A stretch of DNA of 64,000 bases from an uncultured virus (IMG/VR IMGVR_UViG_3300042914_003341) (taxonomy: Duplodnaviria > Heunggongvirae > Uroviricota > Caudoviricetes). This document shows positions 9,577 through 42,168 of the stretch, in pieces; position 1 is the first letter of the stretch, and every line of letters starts with the position of its first letter. The DNA lies in the IMG/VR virus record IMGVR_UViG_3300042914_003341; one strand, given 5' to 3'. The position numbers and the translations under genes are program-made. The notes under the pieces are model-generated. The model made no database searches and was not told the origin of the DNA. It saw only the letters and a program-made list of their open reading frames with translations.

Positions 9577-9848
9577 GATCGTTGGAGGTTATCATGGCCA
9601 TCAAGCGCAGTCAAGAGCATGTCTGAGAGATCAGACATTTCTTCCATGACCCAATAATCATGCCTGTCATATGAGAACCAATTAAACGTGGCCACAGGTA
9701 CACCAAACAACAAACCATACACAATCCATGGCATCATATCACCAAGTGGAATTAGTGTTTCTGGCCTGACAACACTCAACCATCTATAGTTTCCGAACCG
9801 TCGGCGCGCGGGATCTAGGAATGATTCTATCTTTATTAGAGGTCGCAT
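9573..9848 (-). CDS. small protein, ELAD-motif family
   Basis: EMSDLSDMLL. Confidence 0.55.
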   Translation of the reverse strand: MRPLIKIESFLDPARRRFGNYRWLSVVRPETLIPLGDMMPWIVYGLLFGVPVATFNWFSYDRHDYWVMEEMSDLSDMLLTALDGHDNLQRS

Positions 9849-13751: not shown

Positions 13752-13760
13752 AACAACCAG

Positions 13761-13789
13761 ACACTAGCATCAGTCTTCGACGGTGTCAA
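13761..13789 (-). promoter_or_regulatory. sigma70-type promoter, near-leaderless
   Basis: TTGACA-17-TAGTGT with extended TG; ATG 9 nt downstream. Confidence 0.65.
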
Positions 13790-17729: not shown

Positions 17730-17758
17730 ACCTTAGCTGAGTTCTGCTCTGGTGTCAA
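17730..17758 (-). promoter_or_regulatory. sigma70-type promoter, near-leaderless
   Basis: TTGACA-17-TAAGGT. Confidence 0.6.
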
Positions 17759-18032
17759 GTGGAATGTTGACGCTGAGCGCGTCAGCTATCTCGAAGAGCA
17801 TCAGAGGGTCCACATGCATATGCAACCTGGATCTTGTGATTCGAACGATACTGATATTTTCGCAATCGTAGTTGACATAGTCAACCGGATCAGGTATTCC
17901 TTCGCCTTTTGACAGAGGTTTGATGCACCACAACAATATCGTCCTCAGCGAATACGCCAAACCGATTCGCGACATGATCTTCCCATCGTTTATGAATCCA
18001 AACGCGCTTTCTGGGATTCCTACGTATTTCAT
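17733..18032 (-). CDS. small protein, ELAD-motif family
   Basis: MLFEIADAL. Confidence 0.6.
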   Translation of the reverse strand: MKYVGIPESAFGFINDGKIMSRIGLAYSLRTILLWCIKPLSKGEGIPDPVDYVNYDCENISIVRITRSRLHMHVDPLMLFEIADALSVNIPLDTRAELS

Positions 18033-22494: not shown

Positions 22495-22718
22495 TTTTGC
22501 AACATGTCCATCAGATCGATGATCCACCAACTATCACCCAGTTGACTATGTTTACCCGCAATCCACTCTGCGTTTGGTTTGCTGAGTGACAAACACAGCC
22601 CACTATACATTCCATTCTCAAATTCAGAAATACCAAGTGCATAGTTGAATTGACTGTCAATCTCACCAATTCTTTGCTGTGAGCTAACAACCACAGCTAG
22701 GGCGAGATAATCATCCAT
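22491..22718 (-). CDS. small protein, ELAD-motif family
   Basis: IIDLMDML; start uncertain. Confidence 0.5.
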   Translation of the reverse strand: MDDYLALAVVVSSQQRIGEIDSQFNYALGISEFENGMYSGLCLSLSKPNAEWIAGKHSQLGDSWWIIDLMDMLQK

Positions 22719-23266
22719 ACTGACTTTGACTCTGGGGCAATCGTCACAGGGTGTTTGAGTTTGTTGTTGCACTTGATCTGCTCAAGCATCCTTTGCAGGA
22801 GGTCAGCACCGCGCTGCATCCCAAGATACACCTCGCGACCTTTGAACTTGCAAACAACCTTGACCTCATGGCCTTCCTCTACGAACTCCTTGACCTTTGA
22901 TGCCTTGACGTTGAGGTCGTTGTCGTCAATGTTCGGCCTGACAATGATCTCTTTTTGTTCCAGAGGCTTCGAACGGCCCTTCTGTGCCTTCTTCTGGTCG
23001 AACAGGAACTTGCCATAGTCAATGATCTTGCAAAGGCTGCGAGGACGTGTCTGACTCGCTGAGTTGATCTCAACCAGATCCAAACCTGCTTCATTCGCCA
23101 TTCCCAGCGCAACTTGCTTCGAGATGTTCTGGTGGTGGTTTCCATCTTGGTCGACAACATCAAGGTATTGCTCCTGGATGTAACCATTGGTTCGATGACT
23201 GCGACCACCAGTGGAAGCCGATGGACGAACTGGAAGGCGAGAACCGTTTGCTGTTTTGTTTCCCAT
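22697..23266 (-). CDS. infC: translation initiation factor IF-3
   Basis: AGLDLVEI, CKIIDYGKFLFDQKK, KEIIVRPNIDDNDL, KVVCKFKGRE. Confidence 0.93.
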   Translation of the reverse strand: MGNKTANGSRLPVRPSASTGGRSHRTNGYIQEQYLDVVDQDGNHHQNISKQVALGMANEAGLDLVEINSASQTRPRSLCKIIDYGKFLFDQKKAQKGRSKPLEQKEIIVRPNIDDNDLNVKASKVKEFVEEGHEVKVVCKFKGREVYLGMQRGADLLQRMLEQIKCNNKLKHPVTIAPESKSVWMIISP

Positions 23267-23318
23267 ATGTGGTGTTTTTTACTTACTCGTTCCTAAAGGT
23301 TTGTGTGCGTGACGATTG

Positions 23319-23347
23319 ATAGTATCAGGTGCTTGAATGGCTGTCAA
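23319..23347 (-). promoter_or_regulatory. sigma70-type promoter for IF-3
   Basis: TTGACA-17-TACTAT with extended TG. Confidence 0.7.
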
Positions 23348-23353
23348 GGGTTG

Positions 23354-24436
23354 CTAGCAGGACACGAGAGTTTTTGCCGCGGAAATGGTGCTCAGAGGTA
23401 CTTTGAACGTTGGGCGTTTGAAAGATTCAGATTTGTCAGAGAAATATACCGGTTCTGAGGCAGAACCCAGCTCATCCTTCTCCCAGGTGACTTCAATCAC
23501 TGGTCCTTTGACCTCAGTTGCTATCCGACGTTGCTCATCGACGTTTGCTGACCATTGCACCGGTTTTGGCATGAAGACATCGCCATTCCTGTTTGGTGTG
23601 AGTTTGTTGAAGACCAGGGCAAGATGATCCTTGACCATGGTCGTCTGGAGTTCATTCAGCGCTGTTGGGTTTGCCATCTCAAAGAAACCTTGGAGCCAGT
23701 ACACGAACTGATCTGGTGTGATTGGCTGAGGTCTATTCTCTGGATGTTTTGCCGCCATTCTGTATGGATGATCAGCTCCCTTTGTCTTGCTGACCGCATT
23801 GGATTGATCAAACAAGTTCACGAACTTATGATCTGGGAACTTGTGCAGGATCTTGTCGACGTACTTGCCACGCTTGTAGTCGAATCCTGTCTTTGTCACA
23901 GTTTTATCAGCCATGTCCTTCAAGGCTCCAGGCTCCCCGGTGATCTTCTTTGTCACATGATTCCATGTGAACTTGGAGATCTCAACTGGAAATGACCCCA
24001 GGAGCTTTGACAGATCTGAGAACTCTGTCACAATCACTTGATATTTGATCCGATGAGCACCACTCAAGACAGATGATCGCCAGTCGATATGGCCGTCATA
24101 AACCCATTTGATCCCCGGGTTGCGATAGCCATAATCATCCGAATCGTCTGAGTATCGATCGCCCCGAGTTGCCTCTTTGACGTCAAAACCGGCTTCTCTG
24201 AGGGTGAACTCTAGTTGTGTCTTTGTGATCGTCGTGCCAATCAAGAAGATGTCAATGTCTGACGCTGGCTGCTGACGATACCATTCACGTGGAGCACCTC
24301 CAGCAACAACAGCTTCACGTGTCCATGGCAAATGACTGAGTGTTGACATCAGGTGATCTGTCGCAGCTTTCTGCGCCTTGATCAACTCTGCTGAGTCTTT
24401 TTGTTTGTGATAGTTTTTTAGTTCTGCTTTGTTCAC
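23354..24436 (-). CDS. Pol-beta-superfamily nucleotidyltransferase (CCA/poly(A)-like head) with extra C-terminal domain
   Basis: VAGGAPR...SDIDIF; GTG start overlapping upstream TGA; C-terminal TPDQFVYWLQGFFE segment. Confidence 0.75.
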   Translation of the reverse strand: MNKAELKNYHKQKDSAELIKAQKAATDHLMSTLSHLPWTREAVVAGGAPREWYRQQPASDIDIFLIGTTITKTQLEFTLREAGFDVKEATRGDRYSDDSDDYGYRNPGIKWVYDGHIDWRSSVLSGAHRIKYQVIVTEFSDLSKLLGSFPVEISKFTWNHVTKKITGEPGALKDMADKTVTKTGFDYKRGKYVDKILHKFPDHKFVNLFDQSNAVSKTKGADHPYRMAAKHPENRPQPITPDQFVYWLQGFFEMANPTALNELQTTMVKDHLALVFNKLTPNRNGDVFMPKPVQWSANVDEQRRIATEVKGPVIEVTWEKDELGSASEPVYFSDKSESFKRPTFKVPLSTISAAKTLVSC

Positions 24437-24867
24437 GTGCTTGTTGTTCCTTTTTCTTCTTCCTTCATCCTCTTCGCATCGAACTTGTCTTGATCTGCTT
24501 TGATAATAGCTTTGAACTCTTGCATCTGCTCCAGCAGGTTCCTGCCGCGAGCAACCAACATCCCTGCAAGATTTTTGTCGAGGAGCCATGGCTGGTGATA
24601 TTTCCAGGCAAAAGCGCTGTCAAACCCACAATCATGGCACCATAGCCTCTGGTGCCGACTGTACAATCCAGTGGTTTCTACCGGCTCAAAGTAATCATCA
24701 CCTCTGCGCATGTCCTTGTGACCACAGCGAGCCATGGCAAGCAACGCAGCGGCAATGGCCTCATACTGTGAATATGAAGAGTATCCATGACGTGCTAAAT
24801 CTACAGCATATCGATAAGCTTCTGTTTCCTTGTCAGCCTTCTTGCCGTCAGTGTTGTAGTCGCTCAT
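24433..24867 (-). CDS. hypothetical protein, possible Zn ribbon
   Basis: CGH...CHDCG. Confidence 0.6.
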   Translation of the reverse strand: MSDYNTDGKKADKETEAYRYAVDLARHGYSSYSQYEAIAAALLAMARCGHKDMRRGDDYFEPVETTGLYSRHQRLWCHDCGFDSAFAWKYHQPWLLDKNLAGMLVARGRNLLEQMQEFKAIIKADQDKFDAKRMKEEEKGTTST

Positions 24868-26686: not shown

Positions 26687-26714
26687 GCTGCTCCTTGTTG
26701 TGTGAATAAACTAT

Positions 26715-26788
26715 TGGATCACAGTGAGGGAGTTGAACCCCCATTCAACGAGTCAAAGTCGTTTGTCCTACCATTGGACGAACTGTGA
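26715..26788 (-). tRNA. tRNA-Gln(TTG)
   Basis: Cloverleaf, loop CTTTGAC, CCA encoded. Confidence 0.9.
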
Positions 26789-26798
26789 ATGGTAACGG

Positions 26799-26875
26799 TG
26801 GTGGGTCTGCTGAGATTTGAACTCAGATTTCACAGATTAAGAGTCTGGTGTAATAAACCGTTATACTACAAACCC
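26799..26875 (-). tRNA. tRNA-Lys(CTT)
   Basis: Loop CTCTTAA, CCA encoded. Confidence 0.9.
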
Positions 26876-26901
26876 AAATATGAACGAAACGAACGAAACA
26901 G

Positions 26902-26973
26902 TAGCCCCAGAAGGAATCGGACCTCCGACCTCCAAGGCGTAAGCTTGGGGTTCTGCCATTGAACTATAGGGCC
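26902..26973 (-). tRNA. tRNA-Val(TAC)
   Basis: Loop CTTACGC; T-loop TCCGATT; no CCA. Confidence 0.8.
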
Positions 26974-26992
26974 AGATGAAGAAAAAAAGGAG

Positions 26993-27189
26993 AGCGGGTC
27001 CAAGGAATTGAACCTTGATAGTCCATCGATGGAGGCAAGAGATTTTGGCCGCGAAACATGATCAGTGCTCGGAACAAAAACTCTTGTAATCAACCATCTA
27101 GCTGAATGCAGATCATTGATCAGATGACCTACACCGGCAGACCCTGCCAGATTGGACTCTGGCGGCATTAGCCAAAATGCGTGACCCGC
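26993..27189 (-). ncRNA. giant tRNA-like RNA (Gly-type acceptor, about 125-nt variable region)
   Basis: GCGGGTC/GACCCGC-T, D arm, GCCAG-AGTCCAAT-CTGGC arm, T arm CAAGG-TTCAATT-CCTTG. Confidence 0.75.
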
Positions 27190-27211
27190 GTGAAAAGAAA
27201 AACAAAGGTAG

Positions 27212-27327
27212 CTGGGACGATCGGAGTCGAACCGATAGAGGGGCCTCGCGGATACCCTGTCAGGTTTCGCCGCAAAACTATTCTTGCAGCTACCGACTGA
27301 CTTCTCTGTCCATTTGAATACATCCCA
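27212..27327 (-). ncRNA. tRNA-like RNA with about 33-nt anticodon loop and long variable arm
   Basis: TGGGATG/CGTCCCA, GTCAG/CTGAC stem, T arm ATCGG-TTCGACT-CCGAT. Confidence 0.7.
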
Positions 27328-27332
27328 GATAG

Positions 27333-27403
27333 AGCGTGTGACGAGACTCGAACTCGTAATCCGAGCTTGGAAGGCAGGGCTTTTACCATTAAATTACACA
27401 CGC
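27333..27403 (-). tRNA. tRNA-Gly(TCC)
   Basis: Loop CTTCCAA, U73; two anticodon-stem mismatches. Confidence 0.8.
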
Positions 27404-27458
27404 AAAGAAACCAAGGCAGTTAAGTCAAAGCTAAGGAAGAAGAAGAAAGAGATTGCTG

Positions 27459-27722
27459 TCAGAAAGTTCTCGTGACACATCCTCGCATGAACCCACAGCA
27501 GGCGTTCATCCGCACCTGACGACCGGCAGGGTTTGTTGCAGCGATGGTAAACTCCGTGTCATACCCCTTCCCGCAGAGATGAACGTAAGAAGTATCAACA
27601 ACCCTGACGTTGGAGAACCCCATGTCCTGGAAATGCTGAACTGCTGTGTCCTGGCTTGAGCAGGCAGTGGTAGCAGTTGAAGACAGAACCAGGAGCGCAA
27701 GAAGGCGTAGAGAGTTTCGCAT
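27459..27722 (-). CDS. small lipoprotein
   Basis: MRNSLRLLALLVLSSTATTA-C signal peptide and lipobox; Cys-rich C-terminus. Confidence 0.75.
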   Translation of the reverse strand: MRNSLRLLALLVLSSTATTACSSQDTAVQHFQDMGFSNVRVVDTSYVHLCGKGYDTEFTIAATNPAGRQVRMNACCGFMRGCVTRTF

Positions 27723-27760
27723 CGCTTTATATACCTTTCGTGAATGTTGTTGACCGACAG

Positions 27761-27846
27761 TAGGGCTGGAGGGATTTGCACCCCCAGTTGCGGTTTTGCC
27801 GCGTCCGATTTTGAGCCGGAAGTGTCTGCTGTTCCACCACAACCCC
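27761..27846 (-). tRNA. tRNA-Leu(CAA)
   Basis: Loop CTCAAAA, long variable arm. Confidence 0.88.
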
Positions 27847-27861
27847 AAACTTAACCAAACA

Positions 27862-28024
27862 TGGAGCGTGCCGCAGGAGTTGAACCCGCACAGGGAGGCC
27901 ACCCCTGTCTCTTGCCAGTGTTTCGATGGGCGAAACACCTCTGACCATCTTTGACTGAGAGAGTCATAGCTCTTTGGAGGGCGACTCCAGCTATTGGTAC
28001 TTCTCAGTCAGCAAGATAGCACGC
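27862..28024 (-). ncRNA. giant tRNA-like RNA (Gly-type acceptor, about 70-nt D arm)
   Basis: GCGTGCT/GGCACGC-T-CCA, T arm GCGGG-TTCAACT-CCTGC, long hairpin TGACTGAGA/TCTCAGTCA. Confidence 0.75.
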
Positions 28025-28060
28025 ATATTTTCTATCTCACGTTGCCTTGGAGACACTCAG

Positions 28061-28089
28061 ACTCTAGCACGAGGCTTCAAGGCTGTCAA
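28061..28089 (-). promoter_or_regulatory. sigma70-type promoter (RNA island)
   Basis: TTGACA-17-TAGAGT with extended TG. Confidence 0.7.
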
Positions 28090-28097
28090 GTGCAACG

Positions 28098-28352
28098 TCA
28101 AAGCTCTGAGTTCGCTGGCGCAATAATATCGCACAACTCGGTCAGGAACATGAGACGCTGCGGCCAATCATGGCTTGGCTCAGAAAACGAAGGATAAACT
28201 CTTTTAAGGAGGTGTGCATTGTGGCGGTCGGCGCTGCCAAAGCAATAATCAATCATGTCGGAAAGAAATGTCTCATTCAAAGGTATGGACGCCGCACCAA
28301 TTCGCTGGCCCAATTTCATGATCGAATCTTGACGTGCAGTGATGCAATCCAT
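28098..28352 (-). CDS. small protein, ELAD-motif family
   Basis: FLTELCDII; AGGAG upstream. Confidence 0.65.
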   Translation of the reverse strand: MDCITARQDSIMKLGQRIGAASIPLNETFLSDMIDYCFGSADRHNAHLLKRVYPSFSEPSHDWPQRLMFLTELCDIIAPANSEL

Positions 28353-28390
28353 TTGATTCTCCTTCTATATGATTGTTAGGTCATCAACAG

Positions 28391-28490
28391 TGGGTCGCCT
28401 AGGAATTGAACCTAGTTGCCTTCGACGGGCGGTGCGTTTCCAAGAAACTTCGTTTTGCAGCGCACTGTTCAGCCATTGAACCTCCGACCC
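28391..28490 (-). ncRNA. tRNA-like RNA with 24-nt anticodon loop (begins CT-GCA-A) and long variable arm
   Basis: GTGCG/CGCAC stem, D arm GTTCA/TGAAC, T arm CTAGG-TTCAATT-CCTAG. Confidence 0.7.
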
Positions 28491-28509
28491 CAAACAAGAA
28501 GAAACATAG

Positions 28510-28581
28510 TGGAGAATAGCGGTTATGCTCCGCTCATCCCTGTGTGCAAGACAGGAGTTTTCCTGAATAAACTAATTCCCC
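28510..28581 (-). tRNA. tRNA-Ala(TGC)
   Basis: G3:U70, loop CTTGCAC, atypical T-loop AGCATAA. Confidence 0.8.
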
Positions 28582-28625
28582 AAACACAAACTACAAGGCA
28601 TGAAGGTTCTGCGGCAAAAACAAGT

Positions 28626-28736
28626 TGGCTGCACCGCTGAGATTTATCTTCTATTCCCCCAGATCTGCCGGTTGACCCCCGGTTATCTTACTACGTCATC
28701 GAGATGGTCGCGAGTTGATGTTTAGACGACAGTGCT
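28626..28736 (-). ncRNA. degenerate Asp-like tRNA-like RNA with enlarged D and T loops
   Basis: GCACTG/CGGTGC, G73-CCA, CCGG-GGGTCAA-CCGG. Confidence 0.5.
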
Positions 28737-28738
28737 AG

Positions 28739-28810
28739 CGCCTCCAGGGAGAATTGAACTCCCGTCTGGTGATCGACAATCACCGGTCCTATCCACTGAA
28801 CGATAGAGGC
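28739..28810 (-). tRNA. tRNA-Asp(GTC)
   Basis: Loop TTGTCGA, G73. Confidence 0.88.
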
Positions 28811-28831
28811 TAAGAAACAATAAGGCAAAGT

Positions 28832-28919
28832 TGGGAGTTTGCGAGGAATCGAACCTCTTGAGGTAGCTAACCACACCCGGTGTGCCCGAGCCGCAGATAT
28901 CCTTTCTGCCAACAAACTC
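28832..28919 (-). ncRNA. atypical tRNA-like RNA (8-bp acceptor, 4-bp T stem)
   Basis: GAGTTTGT/GCAAACTC-CCA, GAGG-TTCGATT-CCTC, 5-bp D stem; anticodon ambiguous. Confidence 0.65.
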
Positions 28920-28932
28920 ATGATATCATCAG

Positions 28933-29005
28933 CACCGCTACTAGGAATCGAACCTAGATGCAACTGTTTAGAAGACAGAGCCCTTATCCATTAGGGGATA
29001 GCGGC
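28933..29005 (-). tRNA. tRNA-Arg(TCT)
   Basis: Loop CTTCTAA. Confidence 0.88.
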
Positions 29006-29018
29006 AAAACAACAAGGG

Positions 29019-29085
29019 GCAGCGACAACATTGGTACGTCCAGGGGTTTACAGTTAAAGATGTATCCTAGACATTCATTCGCTGC
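29019..29085 (-). ncRNA. Y RNA-like stem-loop 1
   Basis: GCAGCGAATG...TACATC...TTGTCGCTGC. Confidence 0.7.
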
Positions 29086-29106
29086 ATGAAAAAGGAGAGG
29101 CTTGTT

Positions 29107-29182
29107 TGGTTGGCACACCTGGAATTGAACCAGGGACAACCAGCTTATCAAGCTGGGATTCTAACCGCTGAACTATGTGCCA
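29107..29182 (-). tRNA. tRNA-Ile(GAT)
   Basis: Loop TTGATAA, CCA encoded. Confidence 0.92.
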
Positions 29183-29192
29183 GTAAGAAGGC

Positions 29193-29268
29193 TATGACGA
29201 CAACGCAAGGCATTTCCTGTAGAGCGTGCATATTTTCAAGATGTATTCTACAAGGATCATTCGTCATA
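29193..29268 (-). ncRNA. Y RNA-like stem-loop 2
   Basis: TATGACGAATG...TACATC...TTGTCGTCATA. Confidence 0.75.
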
Positions 29269-29275
29269 CAGAAAC

Positions 29276-29366
29276 TATAGAGACAAAAGTTAGGTCTGGT
29301 GGGTTGGGATCGGGTTTATTAGACCCGATTTTTAGTCAATGTAACCAGATTCCTGCATTCTCTATG
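29276..29366 (-). ncRNA. Y RNA-like stem-loop 3
   Basis: ATAGAGAATG...TACATT...TTGTCTCTAT. Confidence 0.6.
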
Positions 29367-29369
29367 TGA

Positions 29370-29444
29370 GGCTCCACCCGTAGGATTCGAACCTACATTC
29401 CAAATGTTAACAGCATTTTTTTCTACCGGTTGAAATAGAGTGGA
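29370..29444 (-). tRNA. tRNA-Asn(GTT)
   Basis: Loop CTGTTAA, G73. Confidence 0.88.
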
Positions 29445-29449
29445 AAACT

Positions 29450-29514
29450 GTGACGACAAACAAGTTCTATAGAAGCTTACAATTTCGAATGTATTCTACA
29501 GATTCATTCGTCAC
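29450..29514 (-). ncRNA. Y RNA-like stem-loop 4
   Basis: GTGACGAATG...TACATT...TTGTCGTCAC. Confidence 0.75.
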
Positions 29515-29568
29515 GTGATACTTGATGAGATGCTCTTCTTCTTTTCTTCTTCGCTCCTGACACCTTAG

Positions 29569-29597
29569 AGACTATCAGAGGCTGGGAAGGTTGTCAA
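29569..29597 (-). promoter_or_regulatory. sigma70-type promoter (RNA island)
   Basis: TTGACA-17-TAGTCT, one mismatch from the Ro60 promoter. Confidence 0.75.
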
Positions 29598-29615
29598 GTG
29601 CAGCGTCAAGGCAGT

Positions 29616-29708
29616 TGGCAGAAGGTGCAGGATTTGAACCTGCGGGGGCATGATTAGTGCCCCGGAAGTTTAGCAAACTTCTGTGTTAGACCACTCCACC
29701 AACCTTCT
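29616..29708 (-). tRNA. tRNA-Ser(GCT)
   Basis: Loop TTGCTAA, long variable arm, G73-CCA. Confidence 0.92.
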
Positions 29709-29720
29709 ATGAAGGAAACT

Positions 29721-29798
29721 TGCGGCGACAACTAGAAGGCAACCATGGTGTTGTTTATTCTGTATGATGGATGTAAACACCTTGGTACATTCGCCGCG
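29721..29798 (-). ncRNA. Y RNA-like stem-loop 5
   Basis: GCGGCGAATG...TACATC...TTGTCGCCGC. Confidence 0.75.
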
Positions 29799-29831
29799 AA
29801 AACCTAAATCACATTCAAACTATTATCTTAG

Positions 29832-29929
29832 CCCCAGAGCCTAGGTTCGAACTAGGATTGTCTGGCTTCATGCCAGTCGTAATACCTCACAGCTTTCGCC
29901 TTGTGTTGCACTGTTTATACTACCCCAGG
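29832..29929 (-). ncRNA. tRNA-like RNA with hairpin inserted in D loop
   Basis: T arm CCTAG-TTCGAAC-CTAGG; anticodon arm CTGGC-ATGAA-GCCAG. Confidence 0.65.
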
Positions 29930-29938
29930 AAATTAGTT

Positions 29939-30017
29939 CCAGCAACCCAATCGGAATGCCACCGATGTCTCGCATGATTTTGCGCGTCCTTAAGCTCCCT
30001 AGACGATGGTTTGCTGG
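29939..30017 (-). ncRNA. tRNA-like RNA with extended acceptor stem and short anticodon arm
   Basis: CCAGCAA/TTGCTGG; CGCA-AAATCA-TGCG; ATCGG-TGGCATT-CCGAT. Confidence 0.55.
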
Positions 30018-30090
30018 TGGTGTTGCCTCATGGATTTGCACCATGATTCTTACGGATGCCTCCGCGCTTCACTAATCAAAGCTTGACAAC
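30018..30090 (-). ncRNA. tRNA-like RNA with 4-nt anticodon loop
   Basis: GTTGTC/GGCAAC-A-CCA; GCGGA-GGCA-TCCGT; CATGG-TGCAAAT-CCATG. Confidence 0.65.
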
Positions 30091-30107
30091 CTGGCTTGCG
30101 GCCATTG

Positions 30108-30211
30108 TGTACAGTACCAGACTCGAACTGATCTCTCAGGCTTTCATGCCTGTGTTTTTACCATTCAGCTTCGTGCTAGCCCTAGTCACTGAACTTGAAA
30201 ACTAACTGCAC
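30108..30211 (-). ncRNA. tRNA-like RNA with hairpin inserted in D loop (paralogue of 29832..29929)
   Basis: GTGCAGT/ACTGTAC; CAGGC-ATGAAA-GCCTG; ATCAG-TTCGAGT-CTGGT. Confidence 0.7.
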
Positions 30212-30257
30212 AAGTGATGATGATTGGTGCACTGACAAAGGATAGCAACTGATGTTT

Positions 30258-30473
30258 TTATCTCCAAATGATGTAATCAGGTGCTGCATTCAGTGCGTTA
30301 GACTTTGGCAATGTCTGAACCGGTTTGCCATCCGGAGATATGAAACACACTGTGATCAGACTCAGTGATCCCCGACACCACAAACACCCATTGTTTTGGA
30401 TTGGGAAGGCAAGAAGAGAGACAACTAGTTCCGGAACTGATGTTGGTATCTGAAATGATGTAATCAGTTCCAT
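30258..30473 (-). CDS. hypothetical protein
   Basis: 71-aa ORF between RNA genes. Confidence 0.4.
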   Translation of the reverse strand: MELITSFQIPTSVPELVVSLLAFPIQNNGCLWCRGSLSLITVCFISPDGKPVQTLPKSNALNAAPDYIIWR

Positions 30474-30487
30474 TCATTCTCTCTATA

Positions 30488-30564
30488 TGGTGCGTGGAGT
30501 TGGGTTCGAACCAACGACCTTATCCTTAAAAGGGATTTGCTGCTACCAACTGAGCTATCCACGC
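30488..30564 (-). tRNA. tRNA-Lys(TTT)
   Basis: Loop CTTTTAA, CCA encoded. Confidence 0.92.
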
Positions 30565-30624
30565 GGCCCCGGTTTCCTATAACATCATCCCAGCCAGTAT
30601 ACCAGAAACAGCGCTGGGTGACGA

Positions 30625-30701
30625 CACTTTTATCTCATCCTCCCGATTCGAACGGGCTTTATCCGGCTTGCGGCCGAACCTGTGACCAACACAGTAAGTG
30701 C
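30625..30701 (-). ncRNA. tRNA-like or pseudo-tRNA (GCA loop), acceptor stem disrupted
   Basis: CTGTG-TTGGT-CACAG; TTCGG-CCGCAAG-CCGGA; CCCG-TTCGAAT-CGGG. Confidence 0.5.
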
Positions 30702-30728
30702 TAAAGGACTTGAAACTTCGTGCAAGTT

Positions 30729-30823
30729 TGGAGCCGCCTTCTGCTTTCGAAGCAGCATTTCACCCTTGGTCCCCAGTATAGCTAAACTTGGGGGAGTGCG
30801 TTCTACCTTTGAACTACGACGGC
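30729..30823 (-). ncRNA. tRNA-like RNA with elongated anticodon arm
   Basis: GCCGTC/GGCGGC-T-CCA, canonical D arm, CACTC/GGGTG extended by CCCCA/TGGGG. Confidence 0.7.
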
Positions 30824-30877
30824 AATACAGCACACATTCCAGAGGTTGCTTAAACGCAACTTGTATGGTGCTGTTAG

Positions 30878-30948
30878 TCAGGGAACCTAGGCTCGAACTA
30901 GGGACTCACCGATCCAAACGGTGAACGTTACCACTACGCCATTCCCTG
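30878..30948 (-). tRNA. tRNA-Pro(TGG)
   Basis: Loop TTTGGAT, C1-G72, A73. Confidence 0.88.
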
Positions 30949-30997
30949 AAAACTAAGGTAAGATAAGATATTATCGAGGCTTGCGAGGCATGATCAG

Positions 30998-31026
30998 AAT
31001 CTAGCATGAGGCAGAAGGCTTGTCAA
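30998..31026 (-). promoter_or_regulatory. sigma70-type promoter (RNA island)
   Basis: TTGACA-17-TAGATT with extended TG. Confidence 0.7.
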
Positions 31027-31052
31027 GTGGAGCGTCAAGAGGCGGGGTAAGT

Positions 31053-31155
31053 GATGATTGTTTCGGTGAGATTTGCACTCACAACACAGGCTTTCGCTCT
31101 AGGGATGGTGGCACCAACTTGCCTTCTCTGTTTGGACTTGCGAAACACAATCATC
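31053..31155 (-). ncRNA. structured RNA with T arm and long terminal stem
   Basis: GATGAT..TGTTTCG/CGAAACA-ATCATC; GTGAG-TGCAAAT-CTCAC. Confidence 0.55.
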
Positions 31156-31157
31156 GG

Positions 31158-31298
31158 TGGGATCAGAAGGAGTTGCACCTTCATCTGTGATTTGCGTTTT
31201 ACCGTTAAACTATCCTAAAACCACCATGACAGTAGGTACTAGGAGGCGTTTCGAAACGCCAACTCGGTTGCACACTCTACTAGTTGAGTTATGATCCC
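31158..31298 (-). ncRNA. double-bodied tRNA-like RNA (permuted T-acceptor-D module in place of the anticodon loop)
   Basis: Outer GGGATCA/TGATCCC with D and T arms; inner GGCGT-TTCGAA-ACGCC, TCCTA/TAGGA, GTTT-AACGGTA-AAAC. Confidence 0.7.
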
Positions 31299-31488
31299 TA
31301 ATGCCTTCTGCCTAATAAGCAGAAGGGCTTTTCTCCAGGCAACTACCATAGAATGGTCCATGGGCTGTCCGGAATTGTTTTTTTGATCAGTTCTGATATG
31401 CCAGCCAATTCATCGGATCAAGCATACCACCCAACCGATCACGGGGAACACACGCAAAGGATTTTGTTAAACCATGCATTGTGTGTTC

Positions 31489-31564
31489 GGTAGCCCTGGT
31501 GAGAATTGAACTCGACATCGACGGAGTGAAGGTCCATCATCCTAAGCCATTAGAAGACAGGGCC
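31489..31564 (-). tRNA. tRNA-Glu(TTC)
   Basis: Loop CCTTCAC (C33), bulged T stem. Confidence 0.8.
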
Positions 31565-31622
31565 GAACAAGAAACAACATGTTGTCAGAGAACAGTCAGA
31601 AGAACTAAGTCTTCTTTGTGCT

Positions 31623-31697
31623 TGGTCGCGGCATCGGGAATCGCACCCGAAACTAGAGGGTATGAACCTCTCGTGATAACTGTTTCACTATACCGCA
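31623..31697 (-). tRNA. tRNA-Met(CAT), possibly initiator-like
   Basis: Loop TTCATAC, U1:G72, CCA encoded. Confidence 0.85.
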
Positions 31698-31837: not shown

Positions 31838-31866
31838 GTTGTATCAGGTGCTGGGGAGGTTGTCAA
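31838..31866 (-). promoter_or_regulatory. sigma70-type promoter heading the RNA island
   Basis: TTGACA-17-TACAAC; downstream sequence shared with 4869-4893. Confidence 0.7.
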
Positions 31867-32299
31867 GTGGTGGTGTTGGTAGCTTGTTCTCAAGGGTTTC
31901 GCGGCGATCCTTTTCAACCTTGGTTGTGTTAATGGGAATGAAGACAATCACTCCATCAAACTGAACGTTCTTGAACTTTGCTCCAATGAAACCGTTTGAG
32001 ATCACCAGGGAGAACAGTTTGTCCATGTCAATGAAGGTGCCGCGATCTGCTTGGACCTTAAGCTTGAGAGGATCTGAAACGAGGTCATAGATCTTAGAAT
32101 CATCCACTGTTGCAGAGAACAGATCCTTGGAGTTGTCGAACCAAACCTCACGTTGCTGGGGATTGAGATAGAAGAAGGTGCGTGGAGTCCCTGCCGCATT
32201 CTTCTCTCGCTTGGAGAATGGGTTTGCGCCAAAATACTTGACGCAGTCGAGCAGGAGCTCGGTTGCATCTGTCTTGTTGGTGTAGTGGAACAGCTCCAT
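31844..32299 (-). CDS. hypothetical protein, possible ART-like fold
   Basis: N-terminal LFHYT and PRTFFY strands. Confidence 0.5.
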   Translation of the reverse strand: MELFHYTNKTDATELLLDCVKYFGANPFSKREKNAAGTPRTFFYLNPQQREVWFDNSKDLFSATVDDSKIYDLVSDPLKLKVQADRGTFIDMDKLFSLVISNGFIGAKFKNVQFDGVIVFIPINTTKVEKDRRETLENKLPTPPLDNLPST

Positions 32300-39938: not shown

Positions 39939-40823
39939 TCACAGTGAGGCTCTCAAGGTTTTGTAGAAACTATCAGCGTCAACATTGGCTGGCAACCCAG
40001 CAGTACAACCATCATTCAACTCAACAACAATCCACTCGCCATTGGTTGTCATTGCAACGTCGATCACATAAAATCTCAGATCATCGACCAACGATTTGTG
40101 AGGGTCCAGTTTGGCGATTGTTTTAGGAATGATGTCGTCGAGAAAAGACATGTCTGCTGATTGATCAATGTTCTCAGGCCAGTAGTGCCCTGCGGCGATC
40201 ACTTTGCCGTCGAGGACAAACACTCGATATTCTTCTGACACTGGGCAACACTCTGGAAATTGGTCGTTGATCAGTCTATTCAAGAGAACATGAGGACGAA
40301 CCACAACATCTTCTGGGGAGTGACCGGCGGCAAAGAGATTTGCGGCAATCGCCTTTGTTTCTTCAAAGTTCTTGGCAAACATGTGACTCGACCAACGCTC
40401 CTTCATCGACTTCTCTCTGGTTTTCAGAACGAAACCACCAGAGATTGGCCATGGGCATGCTTTGAGCGCTAGGTTTGTGTTAGAACCCATCTGCATCATC
40501 AGAAACTGATTCCATGGATAACTCCACGGTGTCAGATCAGGTCCAAGATCCTCTTGATATGACAAGATATCGCGGAGATAGTTTGTGGCGTGTTTGCCGT
40601 TGATTGGCACGCATCCTGATTCAACAATGTCGTCGATGACTTCGTTGTGATGCGGCCACAGAAAGAACCTGGGAATCACCAGAGTTTCTTCTGGGTATTG
40701 AACTAGTTTGGTTCTGAGGTCTAGGACGTCAAACCCATTTGATTGGATGGCGGTCAGTTCTTCGGTCTGCTCGACCTTAGAAATAACACCTTTACGAAAC
40801 AATACGATTGGTGTGTTGCTCAT
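39939..40823 (-). CDS. ATP-grasp protein (R2K/DUF4343-like)
   Basis: FVLKTREKSMK, EYRVFVLDG, YVIDVA, WIVVELNDG. Confidence 0.85.
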   Translation of the reverse strand: MSNTPIVLFRKGVISKVEQTEELTAIQSNGFDVLDLRTKLVQYPEETLVIPRFFLWPHHNEVIDDIVESGCVPINGKHATNYLRDILSYQEDLGPDLTPWSYPWNQFLMMQMGSNTNLALKACPWPISGGFVLKTREKSMKERWSSHMFAKNFEETKAIAANLFAAGHSPEDVVVRPHVLLNRLINDQFPECCPVSEEYRVFVLDGKVIAAGHYWPENIDQSADMSFLDDIIPKTIAKLDPHKSLVDDLRFYVIDVAMTTNGEWIVVELNDGCTAGLPANVDADSFYKTLRASL

Positions 40824-42131: not shown

Positions 42132-42160
42132 ACACTAGCAGACGACCAGAGCCTTGTCAA
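42132..42160 (-). promoter_or_regulatory. sigma70-type promoter
   Basis: TTGACA-17-TAGTGT with extended TG. Confidence 0.7.
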
Positions 42161-42168
42161 GTGGAGCG

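What the first reader, a model, noticed from the sequence alone, without database searches (positions are those of the whole stretch)
26715..31697. RNA island where about half the tRNA-shaped genes are remodelled
Seen: besides 15 decodable tRNAs, about 13 genes keep a recognisable T arm and mostly a paired acceptor stem (several with CCA). They have insertions in the D loop, D arm, anticodon loop or variable region, or 4-6-nt anticodon loops. Several insertions fold into clean hairpins, which argues against random decay. Inference: a library of tRNA mimics. They could act as decoys for anticodon nucleases and tRNA-sensing defences, as non-ribosomal aminoacyl donors, or as scaffolds for Ro60 and the repair enzymes. 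Standard tRNA finders would probably miss them or call them pseudogenes.
Basis: partly seen in the sequence, partly recalled or inferred. Interest (0 to 1): 0.87.

Follow-up and report, generated by a model that had tools for sequence, protein, structure and literature searches.

The report
Phage tRNA island with non-decoding tRNA look-alikes
A large freshwater phage carries a 5-kb cluster in which about 15 ordinary tRNA genes are interleaved with 13 RNAs that keep the upper half of the tRNA shape but have a sealed or overgrown decoding loop; a related phage conserves several of them, so they are probably working RNAs of unknown role.

Summary
On the minus strand of 26715-31697, ARAGORN finds 14 tRNAs and Rfam 16. 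My scans add tRNA-shaped elements, giving 13 remodelled genes plus one aberrant Glu-like tRNA. T-arm hairpins with a paired acceptor stem occur only here in the 64 kb.

The remodelled genes have 4-6-nt "anticodon" loops, 17-26-nt inserts just after the anticodon position, or 70-125-nt arms in place of the D or anticodon arm. Three carry CCA.

One metagenome relative (L021, 85-91% identical) covers ten of them:
- Seven are present. E13, E7 and the E6 interior are 98-99% identical, against 82.9% at four-fold codon sites.
- E14 and E12 diverged fast but keep their helices through compensatory changes.
- E2 keeps only its ends.
- E4, E5 and E11 are absent.

I read them as selected, non-decoding tRNA-derived RNAs that are processed like tRNAs. 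Function was not tested; decoy, ligand, masked pre-tRNA and processing-signal readings all remain open. A link to the phage Ro60 is not supported for these elements.

Similar unannotated elements occur, at a lower share, in two other phage tRNA islands. I therefore call this a new variant of a known kind (compare T4 RNA C and D).

Seven copies of a separate covarying hairpin family were noticed in passing.

The parts
31623..31697 (-). tRNA-Met (CAT), first gene of the island
   Evidence: ARAGORN; Rfam 52.9 bits; 75/75 identical in L021
31491..31564 (-). E1: aberrant Glu-like tRNA (UUC). It has C at position 33 and only 3 T-stem pairs.
   Evidence: Rfam 36 bits. Missed by default ARAGORN and found at ps80. 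73/74 identical in L021.
31159..31298 (-). E2: 140-nt element with a 7/7 acceptor stem and a T arm. It has no anticodon arm and an insert of about 70 nt that holds a 6-bp GC hairpin.
   Evidence: z -2.8. Rfam 24.5 bits on its last 58 nt. Only 62% identical in L021, where the ends are kept. An X7 contig skips 31182-31295.
31059..31147 (-). E3: 89-nt element with a 7/7 Watson-Crick acceptor stem, a T arm and a remodelled body.
   Evidence: 82/89 identical in L021. Acceptor pair 3-70 changes U-A to C-G, while pairs 1-72 and 2-71 are broken in L021.
30877..30948 (-). tRNA-Pro (TGG)
   Evidence: 58/72 identical in L021, with T stem and acceptor changed in a compensatory way.
30729..30823 (-). E13: 91-nt cloverleaf followed by UCCA. 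The D arm (with GG) and T arm are intact. The anticodon stem is closed by a 28-nt loop that begins CCCCAA, a Trp CCA-like reading, and 5 loop bases pair with the insert.
   Evidence: Native cloverleaf fold, z -2.0. Called by ARAGORN only at ps70 with a 21-nt intron. 88/89 identical in L021 while the upstream spacer is 48% identical. P=1e-6 against four-fold sites.
30624..30723 (-). E14: a long irregular terminal helix, two short hairpins with 5-nt loops, and a T arm.
   Evidence: T arm; window and L021 fold alike. In hairpin 2, 5 of 7 pairs changed on both sides; in hairpin 1, 2 of 5 did. 66% identity.
30488..30564 (-). tRNA-Lys (TTT)
   Evidence: Replaced by a different tRNA-Lys in L021.
30109..30211 (-). 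E4: 103-nt element with a 7/7 acceptor stem, a T arm, a 6-nt loop AUGAAA, and an extra hairpin between the acceptor stem and the D region.
   Evidence: Rfam 19.7 bits on the inner part. Absent from L021 and from the X16 contig.
30018..30090 (-). E5: 69-nt cloverleaf followed by ACCA, with a 4-nt loop where the anticodon loop should be.
   Evidence: z -2.7; MFE equals centroid. Absent from L021 and from the X16 contig.
29941..30014 (-). E12: four-way structure with a terminal helix. Its T-arm-like hairpin has a TGGCATT loop.
   Evidence: (ps80). In L021 the terminal helix is kept through changes on both sides, and the T-like hairpin is replaced by a different hairpin.
29833..29929 (-). E6: 97-nt element with a 7/7 acceptor stem (3 G-U pairs), a T arm, a 5-nt loop AUGAA and a GAAA-capped hairpin.
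   Evidence: Interior 81/83 identical in L021 (P=2.7e-5) while both acceptor strands changed: pair 4-69 G-U to C-G, pair 6-67 to A.C.
29616..29708 (-). tRNA-Ser (GCT)
29370..29444 (-). tRNA-Asn (GTT)
   Evidence: Only 50/75 identical in L021.
29107..29182 (-). tRNA-Ile (GAT)
28932..29005 (-). tRNA-Arg (TCT)
   Evidence: L021 has a weaker Arg-like gene (30.7 bits) in its place.
28834..28919 (-). E11: 86-nt element with an 8-bp terminal helix, a 4-bp T stem, a 5-nt loop on a 6-bp stem, and a long variable arm.
   Evidence: ps80; z -2.1. Rfam tRNA-Sec 18.2 bits. Absent from L021.
28738..28810 (-). tRNA-Asp (GTC)
28509..28581 (-). tRNA-Ala (TGC)
   Evidence: 73/73 identical in L021.
28392..28490 (-). 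E7: 99-nt cloverleaf with a 24-nt anticodon loop that begins CUGCAA (a Cys GCA-like reading plus 17 nt) and a long variable arm.
   Evidence: Rfam 30.5 bits. ARAGORN with introns at ps80 calls Cys with a 17-nt intron. 98/99 identical in L021, P=1.8e-7, but the flanking spacer and tRNA-Ala are identical too.
27866..28024 (-). E8: 159-nt element followed by UCCA. It has a 7/7 acceptor stem, a T arm, a 7-bp stem with a 5-nt loop, and a 107-nt two-hairpin arm in the D position.
   Evidence: z -3.3. Not covered by L021.
27760..27846 (-). tRNA-Leu (CAA)
27332..27403 (-). tRNA-Gly (TCC)
   Evidence: In X7 and X16 contigs 27365-27396 is replaced by 115 letters.
27213..27327 (-). E9: 115-nt element with a 7/7 acceptor stem and a T arm. 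A 5-bp anticodon-type stem is closed by a 33-nt loop that holds a 9-bp hairpin. It has a long variable arm and a D loop without a stem.
   Evidence: ARAGORN with introns at its default threshold calls a 26-nt intron. The X16 relative has a 3-nt insertion at 27282, in the hairpin's apical loop.
26994..27189 (-). E10: 196-nt element with a 7/7 acceptor stem, a T arm, and a branched arm of about 125 nt in the anticodon-arm position.
   Evidence: z -4.8; 0 of 200 shuffles fold as well. In the X16 contig it differs by a single 1-nt deletion among the listed indels.
26901..26973 (-). tRNA-Val (TAC)
26799..26875 (-). tRNA-Lys (CTT)
26715..26788 (-). tRNA-Gln (TTG), last gene of the island
30994..31038 (-). 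Promoter-like repeat P1 (double TTGAC box, then TAGATT)
   Evidence: (family D2)
29565..29609 (-). Promoter-like repeat P2
28057..28101 (-). Promoter-like repeat P3, just upstream of E8

Best explanation
The island is a same-strand cluster with several promoters. Ordinary tRNA genes are packed 4-25 nt apart with 13 tRNA-derived genes.

The derived genes keep the coaxial acceptor-stem/T-arm half, and often a D loop with GG. That is the part read by RNase P, 3' trimming enzymes, the CCA-adding enzyme and T-loop modification enzymes. They have lost the 7-nt anticodon loop to a sealed 4-6-nt loop, to an insert, or to a large extra arm.

I infer that they are transcribed and cut out with the tRNAs, become stable RNAs of 70-200 nt, and do not decode. 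At least half are kept by selection.

The most likely mode of action is as non-decoding tRNA look-alikes that bind proteins which recognise the tRNA body. These could be host tRNA-targeting immune nucleases or the phage's own tRNA repair and quality-control enzymes. The window encodes a Thg1-like enzyme, a nucleotidyltransferase next to the island, Ro60 and a HAD repair domain.

Shown here: shape, strand, packing, restriction to the island, conservation above the neutral proxy, and compensatory changes. Inferred: expression, processing, stability and the binding partners.
For: - T arms with paired acceptor stems occur only in the island and only on the tRNA strand. There are 21 there and 0 elsewhere. 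The looser scan gives 24 against about 1.6 expected.
- Unconstrained folds give the acceptor stem plus T arm in 9 of the 13 elements, E11's T stem with only 4 pairs and E13's in a different register.
- Spacers to neighbouring tRNAs are short and there are four promoter-like repeats.
- Relative L021 covers 10 of the 13 elements, and 7 are present.
- E13 is 88/89 identical, E7 98/99 and the E6 interior 81/83. Four-fold codon sites are 406/490 (82.9%). P is 1e-6, 1.8e-7 and 2.7e-5 respectively.
- E13 and the E6 interior are bounded by diverged sequence.
- E14 and E12 diverged to 66-71% identity but fold alike. E14 hairpin 2 has 5 of 7 pairs changed on both sides.
- X7 and X16 contigs cover the block holding E9 and E10 at 96.8% and 97.4% identity. 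Flanking ORFs are at 90-94%. The only indel in E9 falls in a hairpin loop.
- Context genes: Thg1, Ro60 (TROVE plus vWA), HAD_SAK_2, IF3 and a nucleotidyltransferase.
Against: - There is no expression or processing evidence of any kind.
- Only one relative sequence was in hand, so covariation rests on pairs of sequences.
- For E1 and E7 the high identity extends through neighbouring spacers and tRNAs (31780-31300 and 28740-28380). It may therefore reflect a recently shared block rather than selection on the element. Four-fold identity per ORF itself ranges from 71% to 90%.
- E4, E5 and E11 are absent from L021. E2 keeps only its ends. The terminal acceptor pairs of E3 and E6 are partly broken in L021.
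- MFE z-scores are weak (-0.5 to -1.9) for E3, E7, E12, E6, E4, E14 and E9.
- No binding partner was tested.
- Two other phage tRNA islands also hold unannotated T-arm elements (3 of 14 and 5 of 23). The kind is therefore not special to this phage and might include ordinary decay products.
Confidence: 0.5

Rival explanations
1. Masked pre-tRNAs. Some of the elements (E7, E13, E9, perhaps E4, and E1 as it stands) are precursors of real tRNAs. Their insert is removed by cleavage and ligation, and they supply amino acids missing from the ordinary set.
For: - The 14 tRNAs plus E1 cover 14 amino acids and lack Phe, Tyr, Cys, Trp, His and Thr.
- In E7, E13 and E9 the insert sits just after a possible anticodon, followed by a purine: GCA (Cys), CCA (Trp) and GGU (Thr) as read.
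- ARAGORN with introns allowed independently calls Cys for E7 and Phe for E9 and E4.
- E7 and E13 have otherwise complete cloverleaves and are 99% conserved.
- In E13 the insert pairs with the anticodon bases, as in intron-bearing pre-tRNAs.
Against: - The three inserts share no common junction structure, and none forms a bulge-helix-bulge motif (my reading of the folds).
- No splicing endonuclease or RNA ligase family was found in 97 ORFs of the window. The window is only part of the genome.
- C rather than U stands at position 33 in E13, E9 and E1.
- E7 has a long variable arm, which is unusual for Cys.
- The choice of reading register was partly mine.
- Eight or so other elements (4-6-nt loops, large arms) cannot be rescued by removing one insert.
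Confidence: 0.12
2. Cis-acting punctuation. The elements are minimal RNase P and 3'-processing signals. They cut the long island transcripts into pieces, defining the ends of neighbouring tRNAs, small mRNAs and other RNAs, and have no role as free RNAs.
For: - What is kept in all of them is the acceptor/T-arm half, which established knowledge says is sufficient for RNase P.
- The bodies vary freely, as in E2, E14 and E12.
- Elements flank promoters and small ORFs. E7 lies 39 nt before an 84-aa ORF and E8 lies just after promoter P3.
Against: - The interiors of E13, E7 and E6 are more conserved than their acceptor strands or flanks. A pure cutting signal does not need that.
- Tandem runs such as E4-E5-E12-E6 have nothing between them to release.
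Confidence: 0.13
3. Decaying tRNA pseudogenes. These are duplicated or captured tRNAs hit by insertions and deletions, carried along in a fast-recombining island. Their apparent conservation is hitch-hiking in recently exchanged blocks.
For: - The island is a mosaic. Whole cassettes are gained, lost or replaced between relatives: E4 and E5, E11, Arg, Asp, Lys and Asn.
- E2 is 62% identical, below the neutral proxy.
- L021 has its own extra tRNA-like element and a degraded Arg-like gene.
- Other phage islands show unannotated T-arm elements.
- In the Anabaena tRNA operon 3 of 26 genes behave as pseudogenes (PMC8421152, passage read).
Against: - Compensatory changes keep the helices in E14 and E12.
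- E13 and the E6 interior are conserved islands within diverged flanks.
- 7/7 acceptor stems survive in 7 of 9 strict-scan elements despite large inserts.
- Indels in relatives fall in loops.
Confidence: 0.15
4. Ro60 partners. The remodelled elements are this phage's Y RNAs and tether its Ro60 to effectors, as YrlA does in bacteria.
For: - The window encodes a Ro60 (TROVE plus vWA, 13770-15401) on the same strand.
- YrlA RNAs mimic tRNA, and D. radiodurans Yrn1 has a 5-bp stem with a 6-nt loop (PMC4201824, section read).
- E6 and E7 contain a GNCGAA(N)G string.
Against: - The elements lie 11-18 kb from Ro60, whereas the paper's candidates lie within 4 kb.
- None has the YrlA order of T arm, closed acceptor-like hairpin, D arm. 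Here the 5' and 3' ends form the acceptor stem.
- The motif is internal rather than near the 5' end, and it is not enriched: 29 hits on the minus strand of the window, 5 of them in the island.
- No Y-RNA family matched in Rfam.
- The separate R hairpin family fits a Y-RNA outline better.
Confidence: 0.05

Closest known systems
T4 RNA C and RNA D (species 1 and 2), small RNAs from the phage T4 tRNA region
   Same: They are small non-tRNA RNAs encoded inside a phage tRNA gene cluster, and their roles are still unknown (PMC3014915, passage read). That they are tRNA-like at the 3' end and cut by RNase P is my recollection, not checked here. A T4-type phage island (Erwinia phage Cronus) shows 5 unannotated T-arm elements among 23 strict-scan hits.
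   Different: There are 13 elements here against two, about as many as the tRNAs. No sequence similarity to any of 50,697 phage records was found for the stretches holding E4, E5, E12 and E6, E9 and E10, or E13 and E14. The remodelling here is centred on the anticodon arm.
YrlA-type bacterial and phage Y RNAs (Chen et al. 2014, PMC4201824)
   Same: Both are non-decoding RNAs that mimic the tRNA body, with T and D arms, and are substrates of tRNA enzymes. M. smegmatis YrlA is cut by RNase P and receives CCA. Both occur in genomes that encode Ro60, phages included.
   Different: YrlA is circularly rearranged: a Ro60-binding stem at the ends, then T arm, a closed acceptor-like hairpin, then D arm. 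It lies within 4 kb of Ro60. The elements here keep the normal tRNA order with open acceptor ends and lie 11-18 kb from Ro60.
Phage tRNAs that escape host tRNA nucleases through anticodon-loop changes (PMC10264068; see also PMC11464382 and PMC11555353)
   Same: Phage tRNA clusters are read as weapons in a conflict over tRNA cleavage, with the anticodon loop as the part that changes. I saw only the search listings and abstract starts of these papers. A term search of PMC10264068 for decoy, tRNA-like and insertion found nothing.
   Different: Those are working, decoding tRNAs with point changes in a 7-nt loop. Here the loop is sealed, or expanded by 17-125 nt, so decoding is not expected.
Long tRNA gene arrays with defective members (Anabaena trn operon, PMC8421152)
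   Same: Both are dense same-strand tRNA arrays on mobile DNA in which some members are not functional tRNAs. In Anabaena 3 of 26 were not detected and are considered pseudogenes (passage read).
   Different: There the odd members are a small minority and are treated as dead. Here they are about half, and several are conserved or covary.
Intron-bearing pre-tRNAs of archaea and eukaryotes (recalled, not checked here)
   Same: In E7, E13 and E9 the insert lies directly 3' of the anticodon plus one purine. In E13 the insert pairs with the anticodon.
   Different: There is no bulge-helix-bulge motif, no endonuclease gene was found in the window, and the host signals are bacterial in type (sigma-70-like promoters, a Shine-Dalgarno sequence, a lipoprotein signal).

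Membership tests
Canonical tRNA (Rfam RF00005) | Covariance-model score at or above the gathering score of 29 bits | tested here: not met
   Of the 13 remodelled elements, 1 passes (E7, 30.5 bits). E2 scores 24.5 and E4 19.7, both below threshold. E11 matches tRNA-Sec at 18.2 bits. The other 9 give no match at E up to 10. E1 passes at 36 bits.
Canonical tRNA (Rfam RF00005) | A 7-nt anticodon loop with U33 on a 5-bp stem | tested here: not met
   Loops are 4 nt (E5), 5 nt (E6, E11, E14), 6 nt (E4), 24 nt (E7), 28 nt (E13) and 33 nt (E9). There is no such arm, or a large arm instead, in E2, E3, E8, E10 and E12. E1 has a 7-nt loop but C33.
Canonical tRNA (Rfam RF00005) | A 7-bp acceptor stem stacked directly on a 5-bp T stem with a T-loop motif | tested here: met
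   Nine of the 13 pass the strict scan, 7 of them with 7/7 pairs. E13, E14 and E11 pass the looser T-arm scan. E12 has a T-like hairpin with a deviant loop.
YrlA-type Y RNA | Encoded within about 4 kb of Ro60 on the same strand | tested here: not met
   Same strand, but 11-18 kb away: Ro60 at 13770-15401, elements at 26994-31298.
YrlA-type Y RNA | The 5' and 3' ends form the Ro60-binding stem with GNCGAA(N)G near the 5' end, and the T arm precedes a closed acceptor-like hairpin and the D arm | tested here: not met
The ends form an open acceptor stem in normal tRNA order. The motif is internal in E6 and E7 only. No Y-RNA family matched in Rfam.
YrlA-type Y RNA | Bound by Ro60 | not testable with these tools
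   Needs a pull-down or CLIP.
Intron-bearing pre-tRNA (protein-spliced) | Insert at the canonical 37/38 position | tested here: inconclusive
   E7, E13 and E9 can be read this way, but the register is ambiguous. ARAGORN places the E13 and E9 introns differently.
Intron-bearing pre-tRNA (protein-spliced) | Bulge-helix-bulge motif at the junctions, and a splicing endonuclease | tested here: not met
   No 3-nt/4-bp/3-nt motif appears in the folds of E7, E9 or E13. No endonuclease family was found among 97 ORFs of the window. The rest of the genome was not available.
Stable RNAs of phage tRNA clusters (T4 RNA C/D type) | Encoded within the tRNA cluster on the tRNA strand, but not a tRNA | tested here: met
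Stable RNAs of phage tRNA clusters (T4 RNA C/D type) | Accumulates as a discrete stable RNA in infected cells | not testable with these tools
   No RNA run was listed as holding the stretch.
Stable RNAs of phage tRNA clusters (T4 RNA C/D type) | Sequence homology to the T4 RNAs | tested here: not met
   blastn in distant mode found no match in 50,697 phage records for three stretches that cover 8 of the 13 elements.

The most novel reading that the evidence does not exclude
Some of the elements may be latent tRNAs, chiefly E13 (Trp-like), E7 (Cys-like) and E9 (Thr- or Tyr-like). On this reading the anticodon loop is deliberately blocked by an insert, and the phage's own RNA cleavage and ligation enzymes open it during infection. 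That would be protein-catalysed tRNA splicing in a bacteriophage. It would hide these tRNAs from host anticodon nucleases until they are needed.
Probability: 0.07. Interest if true: 0.9.

Novelty: new variant of a known kind. Interest (0 to 1): 0.66.

Why it matters
Phage tRNA clusters are now seen as counter-measures against bacterial immune nucleases that cut tRNA. The non-tRNA RNAs inside such clusters (T4 RNA C and D) have had no known role for decades.

This island offers an unusually rich case. It has about as many tRNA look-alikes as tRNAs. Several are conserved more strongly than the neighbouring proteins, or keep their folds through compensatory change. They sit in a phage that also encodes Ro60, a Thg1-like enzyme, a nucleotidyltransferase, a repair-type HAD domain and IF3.

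If the look-alikes prove to be decoys, ligands of repair enzymes or masked tRNAs, that would add a new layer to the tRNA arms race. It would also show that genome annotation misses a whole class of phage RNA genes. Earlier notes of this scan describe similar islands in other large phages, so the class may be widespread.

Tried and rejected
Searches for relatives:
- IMG/VR, using the 224-aa phosphoesterase: none.
- IMG/VR, using the 411-aa nucleotidyltransferase: five hits to a 45-residue domain only, with no island.
- IMG/VR, using the promoter motif: 15 single hits, about the chance number. The only one near tRNAs is a provirus record that I judged unrelated.
- IMG/VR, using exact cores of E13 and E6: none.
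- Genome contigs: none.
- Metagenome contigs: a single relative, L021.
- The window's own genome is not held.

Expression:
- No RNA holder was listed for the stretch.
- X16 is labelled RNA-Seq, but the tool rates it as probably DNA, so I draw nothing on expression from it.
- Read laying showed only 40 of 553 substitutions and 12 of 104 indels. Per-element divergence in X7 and X16 could therefore not be computed.

Other tests that led nowhere:
- Paralogy. Local alignment of each odd element against the 14 tRNAs and against each other gave scores barely above shuffles, reflecting T-arm similarity only. They are not recent copies of the island's tRNAs.
- The 71-aa ORF at 30258-30473. I rejected it as a gene because L021 has 13-nt and other non-triplet indels there while the flanks are conserved.
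- Known ribozymes or other Rfam families in the spacers: none at E up to 10.
- The nucleotidyltransferase and the 372-aa neighbour of Ro60 have no sequence match in the PDB. 'CCA-adding enzyme' therefore remains a guess based on a PHROG name.
- GNCGAA(N)G as a mark of Ro60 binding in the tRNA-like elements: not enriched.
- Literature. Two full-text searches for phage tRNA-like or pseudo-tRNA clusters turned up no description of an island like this one. That covers only the held open-access library.

Full report
**What the window is**

The 64-kb window has about 47% G+C and is densely packed with ORFs, most on the minus strand. Few of them belong to a known family. Those that do include:
- a Thg1-like enzyme (795-1697);
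- a carbamoyltransferase;
- a HAD_SAK_2 repair-type domain (13158-13751);
- Ro60 with TROVE and vWA domains (13770-15401);
- IF3 (22697-23266);
- an R2K ATP-grasp enzyme;
- a 411-aa protein (23354-24589) that matches a PHROG named nucleotidyltransferase.

The island has no close relative among 50,697 phage records. Only single tRNAs match. Near-identical DNA is held by lake and freshwater metagenome runs. I read the window as part of a large, novel freshwater phage.

**The observation**

All RNA genes lie on the minus strand of 26715-31697.
- ARAGORN finds 14 tRNAs.
- Rfam at gathering score finds 16, adding 31491-31564 (E1, 36 bits) and 28391-28490 (E7, 30.5 bits).
- Three further weak tRNA-clan matches lie in the gaps.

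I scanned for a 5-bp T stem with a T-loop motif, followed directly by seven bases that pair with an upstream heptamer.
- The scan finds 21 distinct T arms, all in the island on the minus strand. There are none in the other 58.7 kb or on the plus strand.
- Nine of the 21 lie outside ARAGORN's tRNAs. Seven of those nine have 7/7 acceptor pairs, against about 0.16 expected by chance per T arm (my hand estimate).
- A looser T-arm scan gives 24 in the island, where about 1.6 would be expected from the rest of the window.

Adding elements seen with relaxed ARAGORN settings and by reading the sequence, I count 13 remodelled elements, plus E1. E1 has a 7-nt UUC loop but C33 and a 3-bp T stem.

**Anatomy of the 13 elements**

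| Element | Length | Main departure from a tRNA |
|---|---|---|
| E5 | 69 nt + ACCA | 4-nt loop in the anticodon position |
| E6 | 97 nt | 5-nt loop |
| E4 | 103 nt | 6-nt loop; extra hairpin before the D region |
| E11 | 86 nt | 5-nt loop; long variable arm |
| E7 | 99 nt | 24-nt anticodon loop; long variable arm |
| E13 | 91 nt + UCCA | 28-nt anticodon loop |
| E9 | 115 nt | 33-nt anticodon loop holding a 9-bp hairpin |
| E2 | 140 nt | no anticodon arm; insert of about 70 nt |
| E8 | 159 nt + UCCA | 107-nt two-hairpin arm in the D position |
| E10 | 196 nt | arm of about 125 nt in the anticodon-arm position |
| E3, E12, E14 | 74-100 nt | four-way structures; T or T-like arm on a terminal helix |

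- In E7, E13 and E9 the loop begins with what could be an anticodon plus a purine.
- Unconstrained MFE folds recover the acceptor stem plus T arm in nine elements, though E11's T stem has only 4 pairs and E13's forms in a different register.
- Shuffle z-scores run from -0.5 to -4.8. The strongest are E10, E8, E2, E5, E11 and E13.
- The elements lie 4-25 nt from neighbouring tRNAs.
- Four promoter-like repeats divide the island.
- Two convincing small ORFs also lie inside it: 28098-28352 and a lipoprotein-like 27459-27722.

**Comparative evidence**

One metagenome relative, L021, was recovered. It is 85-91% identical and colinear with window 36839-28000, so it covers ten of the 13 elements. As a neutral yardstick I used four-fold degenerate sites of eight shared ORFs. 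These are 406/490 identical (82.9%), with a per-ORF range of 71-90%.

Identity by feature, with binomial P against the yardstick where computed:

| Feature | Identity |
|---|---|
| E13 | 88/89 (P=1e-6) |
| E7 | 98/99 (P=1.8e-7) |
| E6 interior | 81/83 (P=2.7e-5) |
| E1 | 73/74 |
| E3 | 82/89 (P≈0.01) |
| E2 | 62% |
| E14 | 66% |
| E12 | 71% |

- E2, E14 and E12 fall below the yardstick.
- E4, E5 and E11 are absent from L021. The E4-E5 deletion is also seen in an X16 contig.

Three points argue for selection rather than hitch-hiking:
- E13 sits between a 48%-identical spacer and the diverged E14.
- The E6 interior is conserved while both of its acceptor strands changed, with one G-U to C-G double change and one A.C.
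- E14 and E12 fold alike in both phages although their hairpins were almost wholly rewritten. E14 hairpin 2 has 5 of 7 pairs changed on both sides, and the E12 terminal helix has two swapped pairs.

Points against:
- The conservation of E1 and E7 extends through neighbouring spacers and tRNAs.
- The outer acceptor pairs of E3 are broken in L021.
- E2 keeps only its ends, and an X7 contig also skips its interior.

For E9 and E10, which L021 does not cover, X7 and X16 contigs span the block 26714-27365 at 96.8% and 97.4% identity. Flanking ORFs are at 90-94%. The one indel in E9 is a 3-nt insertion in the apical loop of its insert hairpin. E8 remains unassessed.

Several ordinary tRNAs (Pro, Ser, Asn, Ile) are less conserved than the yardstick or equal to it, and carry many compensatory changes. 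Whole genes are swapped between relatives. The island is therefore a fast-turnover mosaic.

**What the elements most likely are**

The part retained in every element is the acceptor/T-arm half, often with a GG-bearing D loop. By established knowledge this half is what RNase P, the CCA-adding enzyme and T-loop enzymes read. The part destroyed is the decoding loop.

I conclude that these are tRNA-derived, non-decoding RNAs, processed together with the tRNAs, and that about half of them are under selection. The best guess for mechanism is binding to proteins that recognise the tRNA body. These could be host tRNA-targeting nucleases or the phage's own tRNA repair and quality-control enzymes. This is inference; nothing here tests it.

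A decoy for anticodon nucleases in the strict sense fits poorly, because the anticodon loop is the part that is gone.

**Rival readings**

- *Masked pre-tRNA.* This is attractive for E7, E13 and E9. Their possible anticodons (Cys, Trp, Thr) are among the six amino acids missing from the ordinary set, and ARAGORN with introns calls Cys and Phe. Against it, the inserts share no junction motif. None forms a bulge-helix-bulge. No endonuclease or ligase family was found among the 97 ORFs searched. Position 33 is C in E13 and E9.
- *Pure processing signals.* This does not explain the conserved interiors.
- *Pseudogene decay.* This fits E2 and perhaps E4, E5 and E11, but not E13, E6, E14 or E12.
- *Y RNAs for Ro60.* The elements fail the tests of distance, order of arms and motif position (PMC4201824, sections read). 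No family other than tRNA reached its threshold in Rfam.

**How unusual is it**

The same strict scan was run on two other phage tRNA islands.
- Streptomyces phage CeilingFan: 3 of 14 T-arm hits lie outside ARAGORN's calls and outside the annotated tRNAs.
- T4-type Erwinia phage Cronus: 5 of 23.
- This window: 9 of 21.

Unannotated tRNA-like elements are therefore a general, under-described feature of phage tRNA islands. T4 RNA C and RNA D, whose roles are unknown (PMC3014915), are the classical case.

What stands out here is the share (about half), the variety of remodelling, and the evidence of selection. No sequence homologue exists in the phage collection for stretches covering eight of the elements.

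Earlier notes of this scan describe similar islands in other large phages. They share no sequence with this one. Those notes are unchecked.

**Side finding: the R hairpin family**

A separate family of seven hairpin elements occurs only in the island, with eight copies in L021.
- *Layout.* In order, each has a 7-bp terminal stem, AUG, a second helix, an apical loop that starts UACAU, then UUG and the closing strand of the terminal stem.
- *Covariation.* Across nine aligned copies the terminal stem is paired in 98.4% of cells. Four of its 7 pairs change on both sides, and 0 of 500 shuffles reach its covariation score. Those nine rows are five paralogues taken from two related phages, so they are not independent. 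The second helix differs in every paralogue but always pairs.
- *Position.* Four copies sit directly upstream of tRNA-Ser, Asn, Ile and Arg, and a fifth, in L021 only, upstream of Lys.
- *Motif.* In three of the seven window copies the 5' strand reads G-R-CGAAUG. This fits the GNCGAA(N)G motif proposed for Ro60 binding in bacterial Y RNAs (PMC4201824).
- *Reading.* If any RNA of the island partners the phage Ro60, these copies are better candidates than the tRNA look-alikes, but I rate that as a low-probability lead.

**Verdict**

The reading as tRNA mimics is partly supported, and function remains open. I class it as a new variant of a known kind.

Noticed in passing
30415-30484, 30229-30296, 29722-29797, 29450-29514, 29277-29365, 29194-29267, 29019-29085 (all minus strand): A family of seven structured repeats of 65-89 nt ('R'), found only in the island. 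Each has a covarying 7-bp terminal stem, AUG, a covarying second helix, an apical loop that starts UACAU, then UUG and the closing strand. Four copies sit just upstream of tRNA-Ser, Asn, Ile and Arg. L021 has eight copies, one of them upstream of its tRNA-Lys. In three copies the 5' strand fits the GNCGAA(N)G motif proposed for Ro60 binding in bacterial Y RNAs. They could be Y-like RNAs, tRNA leader or processing elements, or mobile regulatory cassettes.
   Followed up: partly
31299-31490 (minus strand): A 192-nt spacer between E1 and E2 is 97% identical in L021 and folds into four hairpins. The last is a 9-bp GC-rich hairpin without a U tail. It is not tRNA-like and matches no Rfam family.
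   Followed up: partly
30222-30336 (minus strand): A 115-nt block is 100% identical in L021 and in an X16 contig, although the adjacent 100 nt are only 69% identical and carry non-triplet indels. It overlaps one R copy. The 71-aa ORF drawn across it is therefore not a gene.
   Followed up: partly
tRNA-Pro 30877-30948, Ser 29616-29708, Asn 29370-29444, Ile 29107-29182: Between window and L021 these ordinary tRNAs are 67-84% identical, at or below the four-fold-site yardstick of 82.9%. T, acceptor and anticodon stems are rewritten in a compensatory way. Lys, Arg and Asp are swapped or lost. This points to rapid replacement or diversifying pressure on the decoding tRNAs themselves.
   Followed up: partly
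T loops at 31650 (Met), 27785 (Leu), 31182 (E2), 31082 (E3), 30045 (E5): Five T loops begin TGC instead of TTC. This puts G where the nearly universal U55 (pseudouridine) stands, and two of the five are otherwise good tRNAs.
   Followed up: no
28084-28101, 29592-29609, 31021-31038, 42155-42172 (minus strand); weaker copies at 17753-17770 and 31842-31869: A repeated promoter-like motif with two TTGAC boxes, followed about 17 nt later by TAGANT. There are four exact copies of the 18-mer against 0.36 expected, three of them inside the island.
   Followed up: partly
795-1697, 13158-15401, 22697-24589, 39939-40823: Translation and RNA-repair cargo near the island: a Thg1-like enzyme, HAD_SAK_2 next to Ro60, IF3 next to a nucleotidyltransferase, and an R2K ATP-grasp enzyme. 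The 372-aa and 347-aa neighbours of Ro60 match no family.
   Followed up: partly
L023 about 9276, 9475, 13790, 14441, 14830; L022 about 303, 5979, 6684 (locus coordinates, minus strand): Unannotated T-arm plus acceptor elements lie in the gaps of the tRNA islands of Erwinia phage Cronus and Streptomyces phage CeilingFan. This suggests that tRNA-like genes are generally missed in phage annotation.
   Followed up: no
L021 about 7470-7580 and 9540-9614: The relative has its own extra tRNA-like element, with a D arm and a T arm, in a 330-nt insert before its tRNA-Lys. It also has a weak Arg(TCT)-like gene (30.7 bits) with a deviant T loop where the window has a good tRNA-Arg.
   Followed up: no
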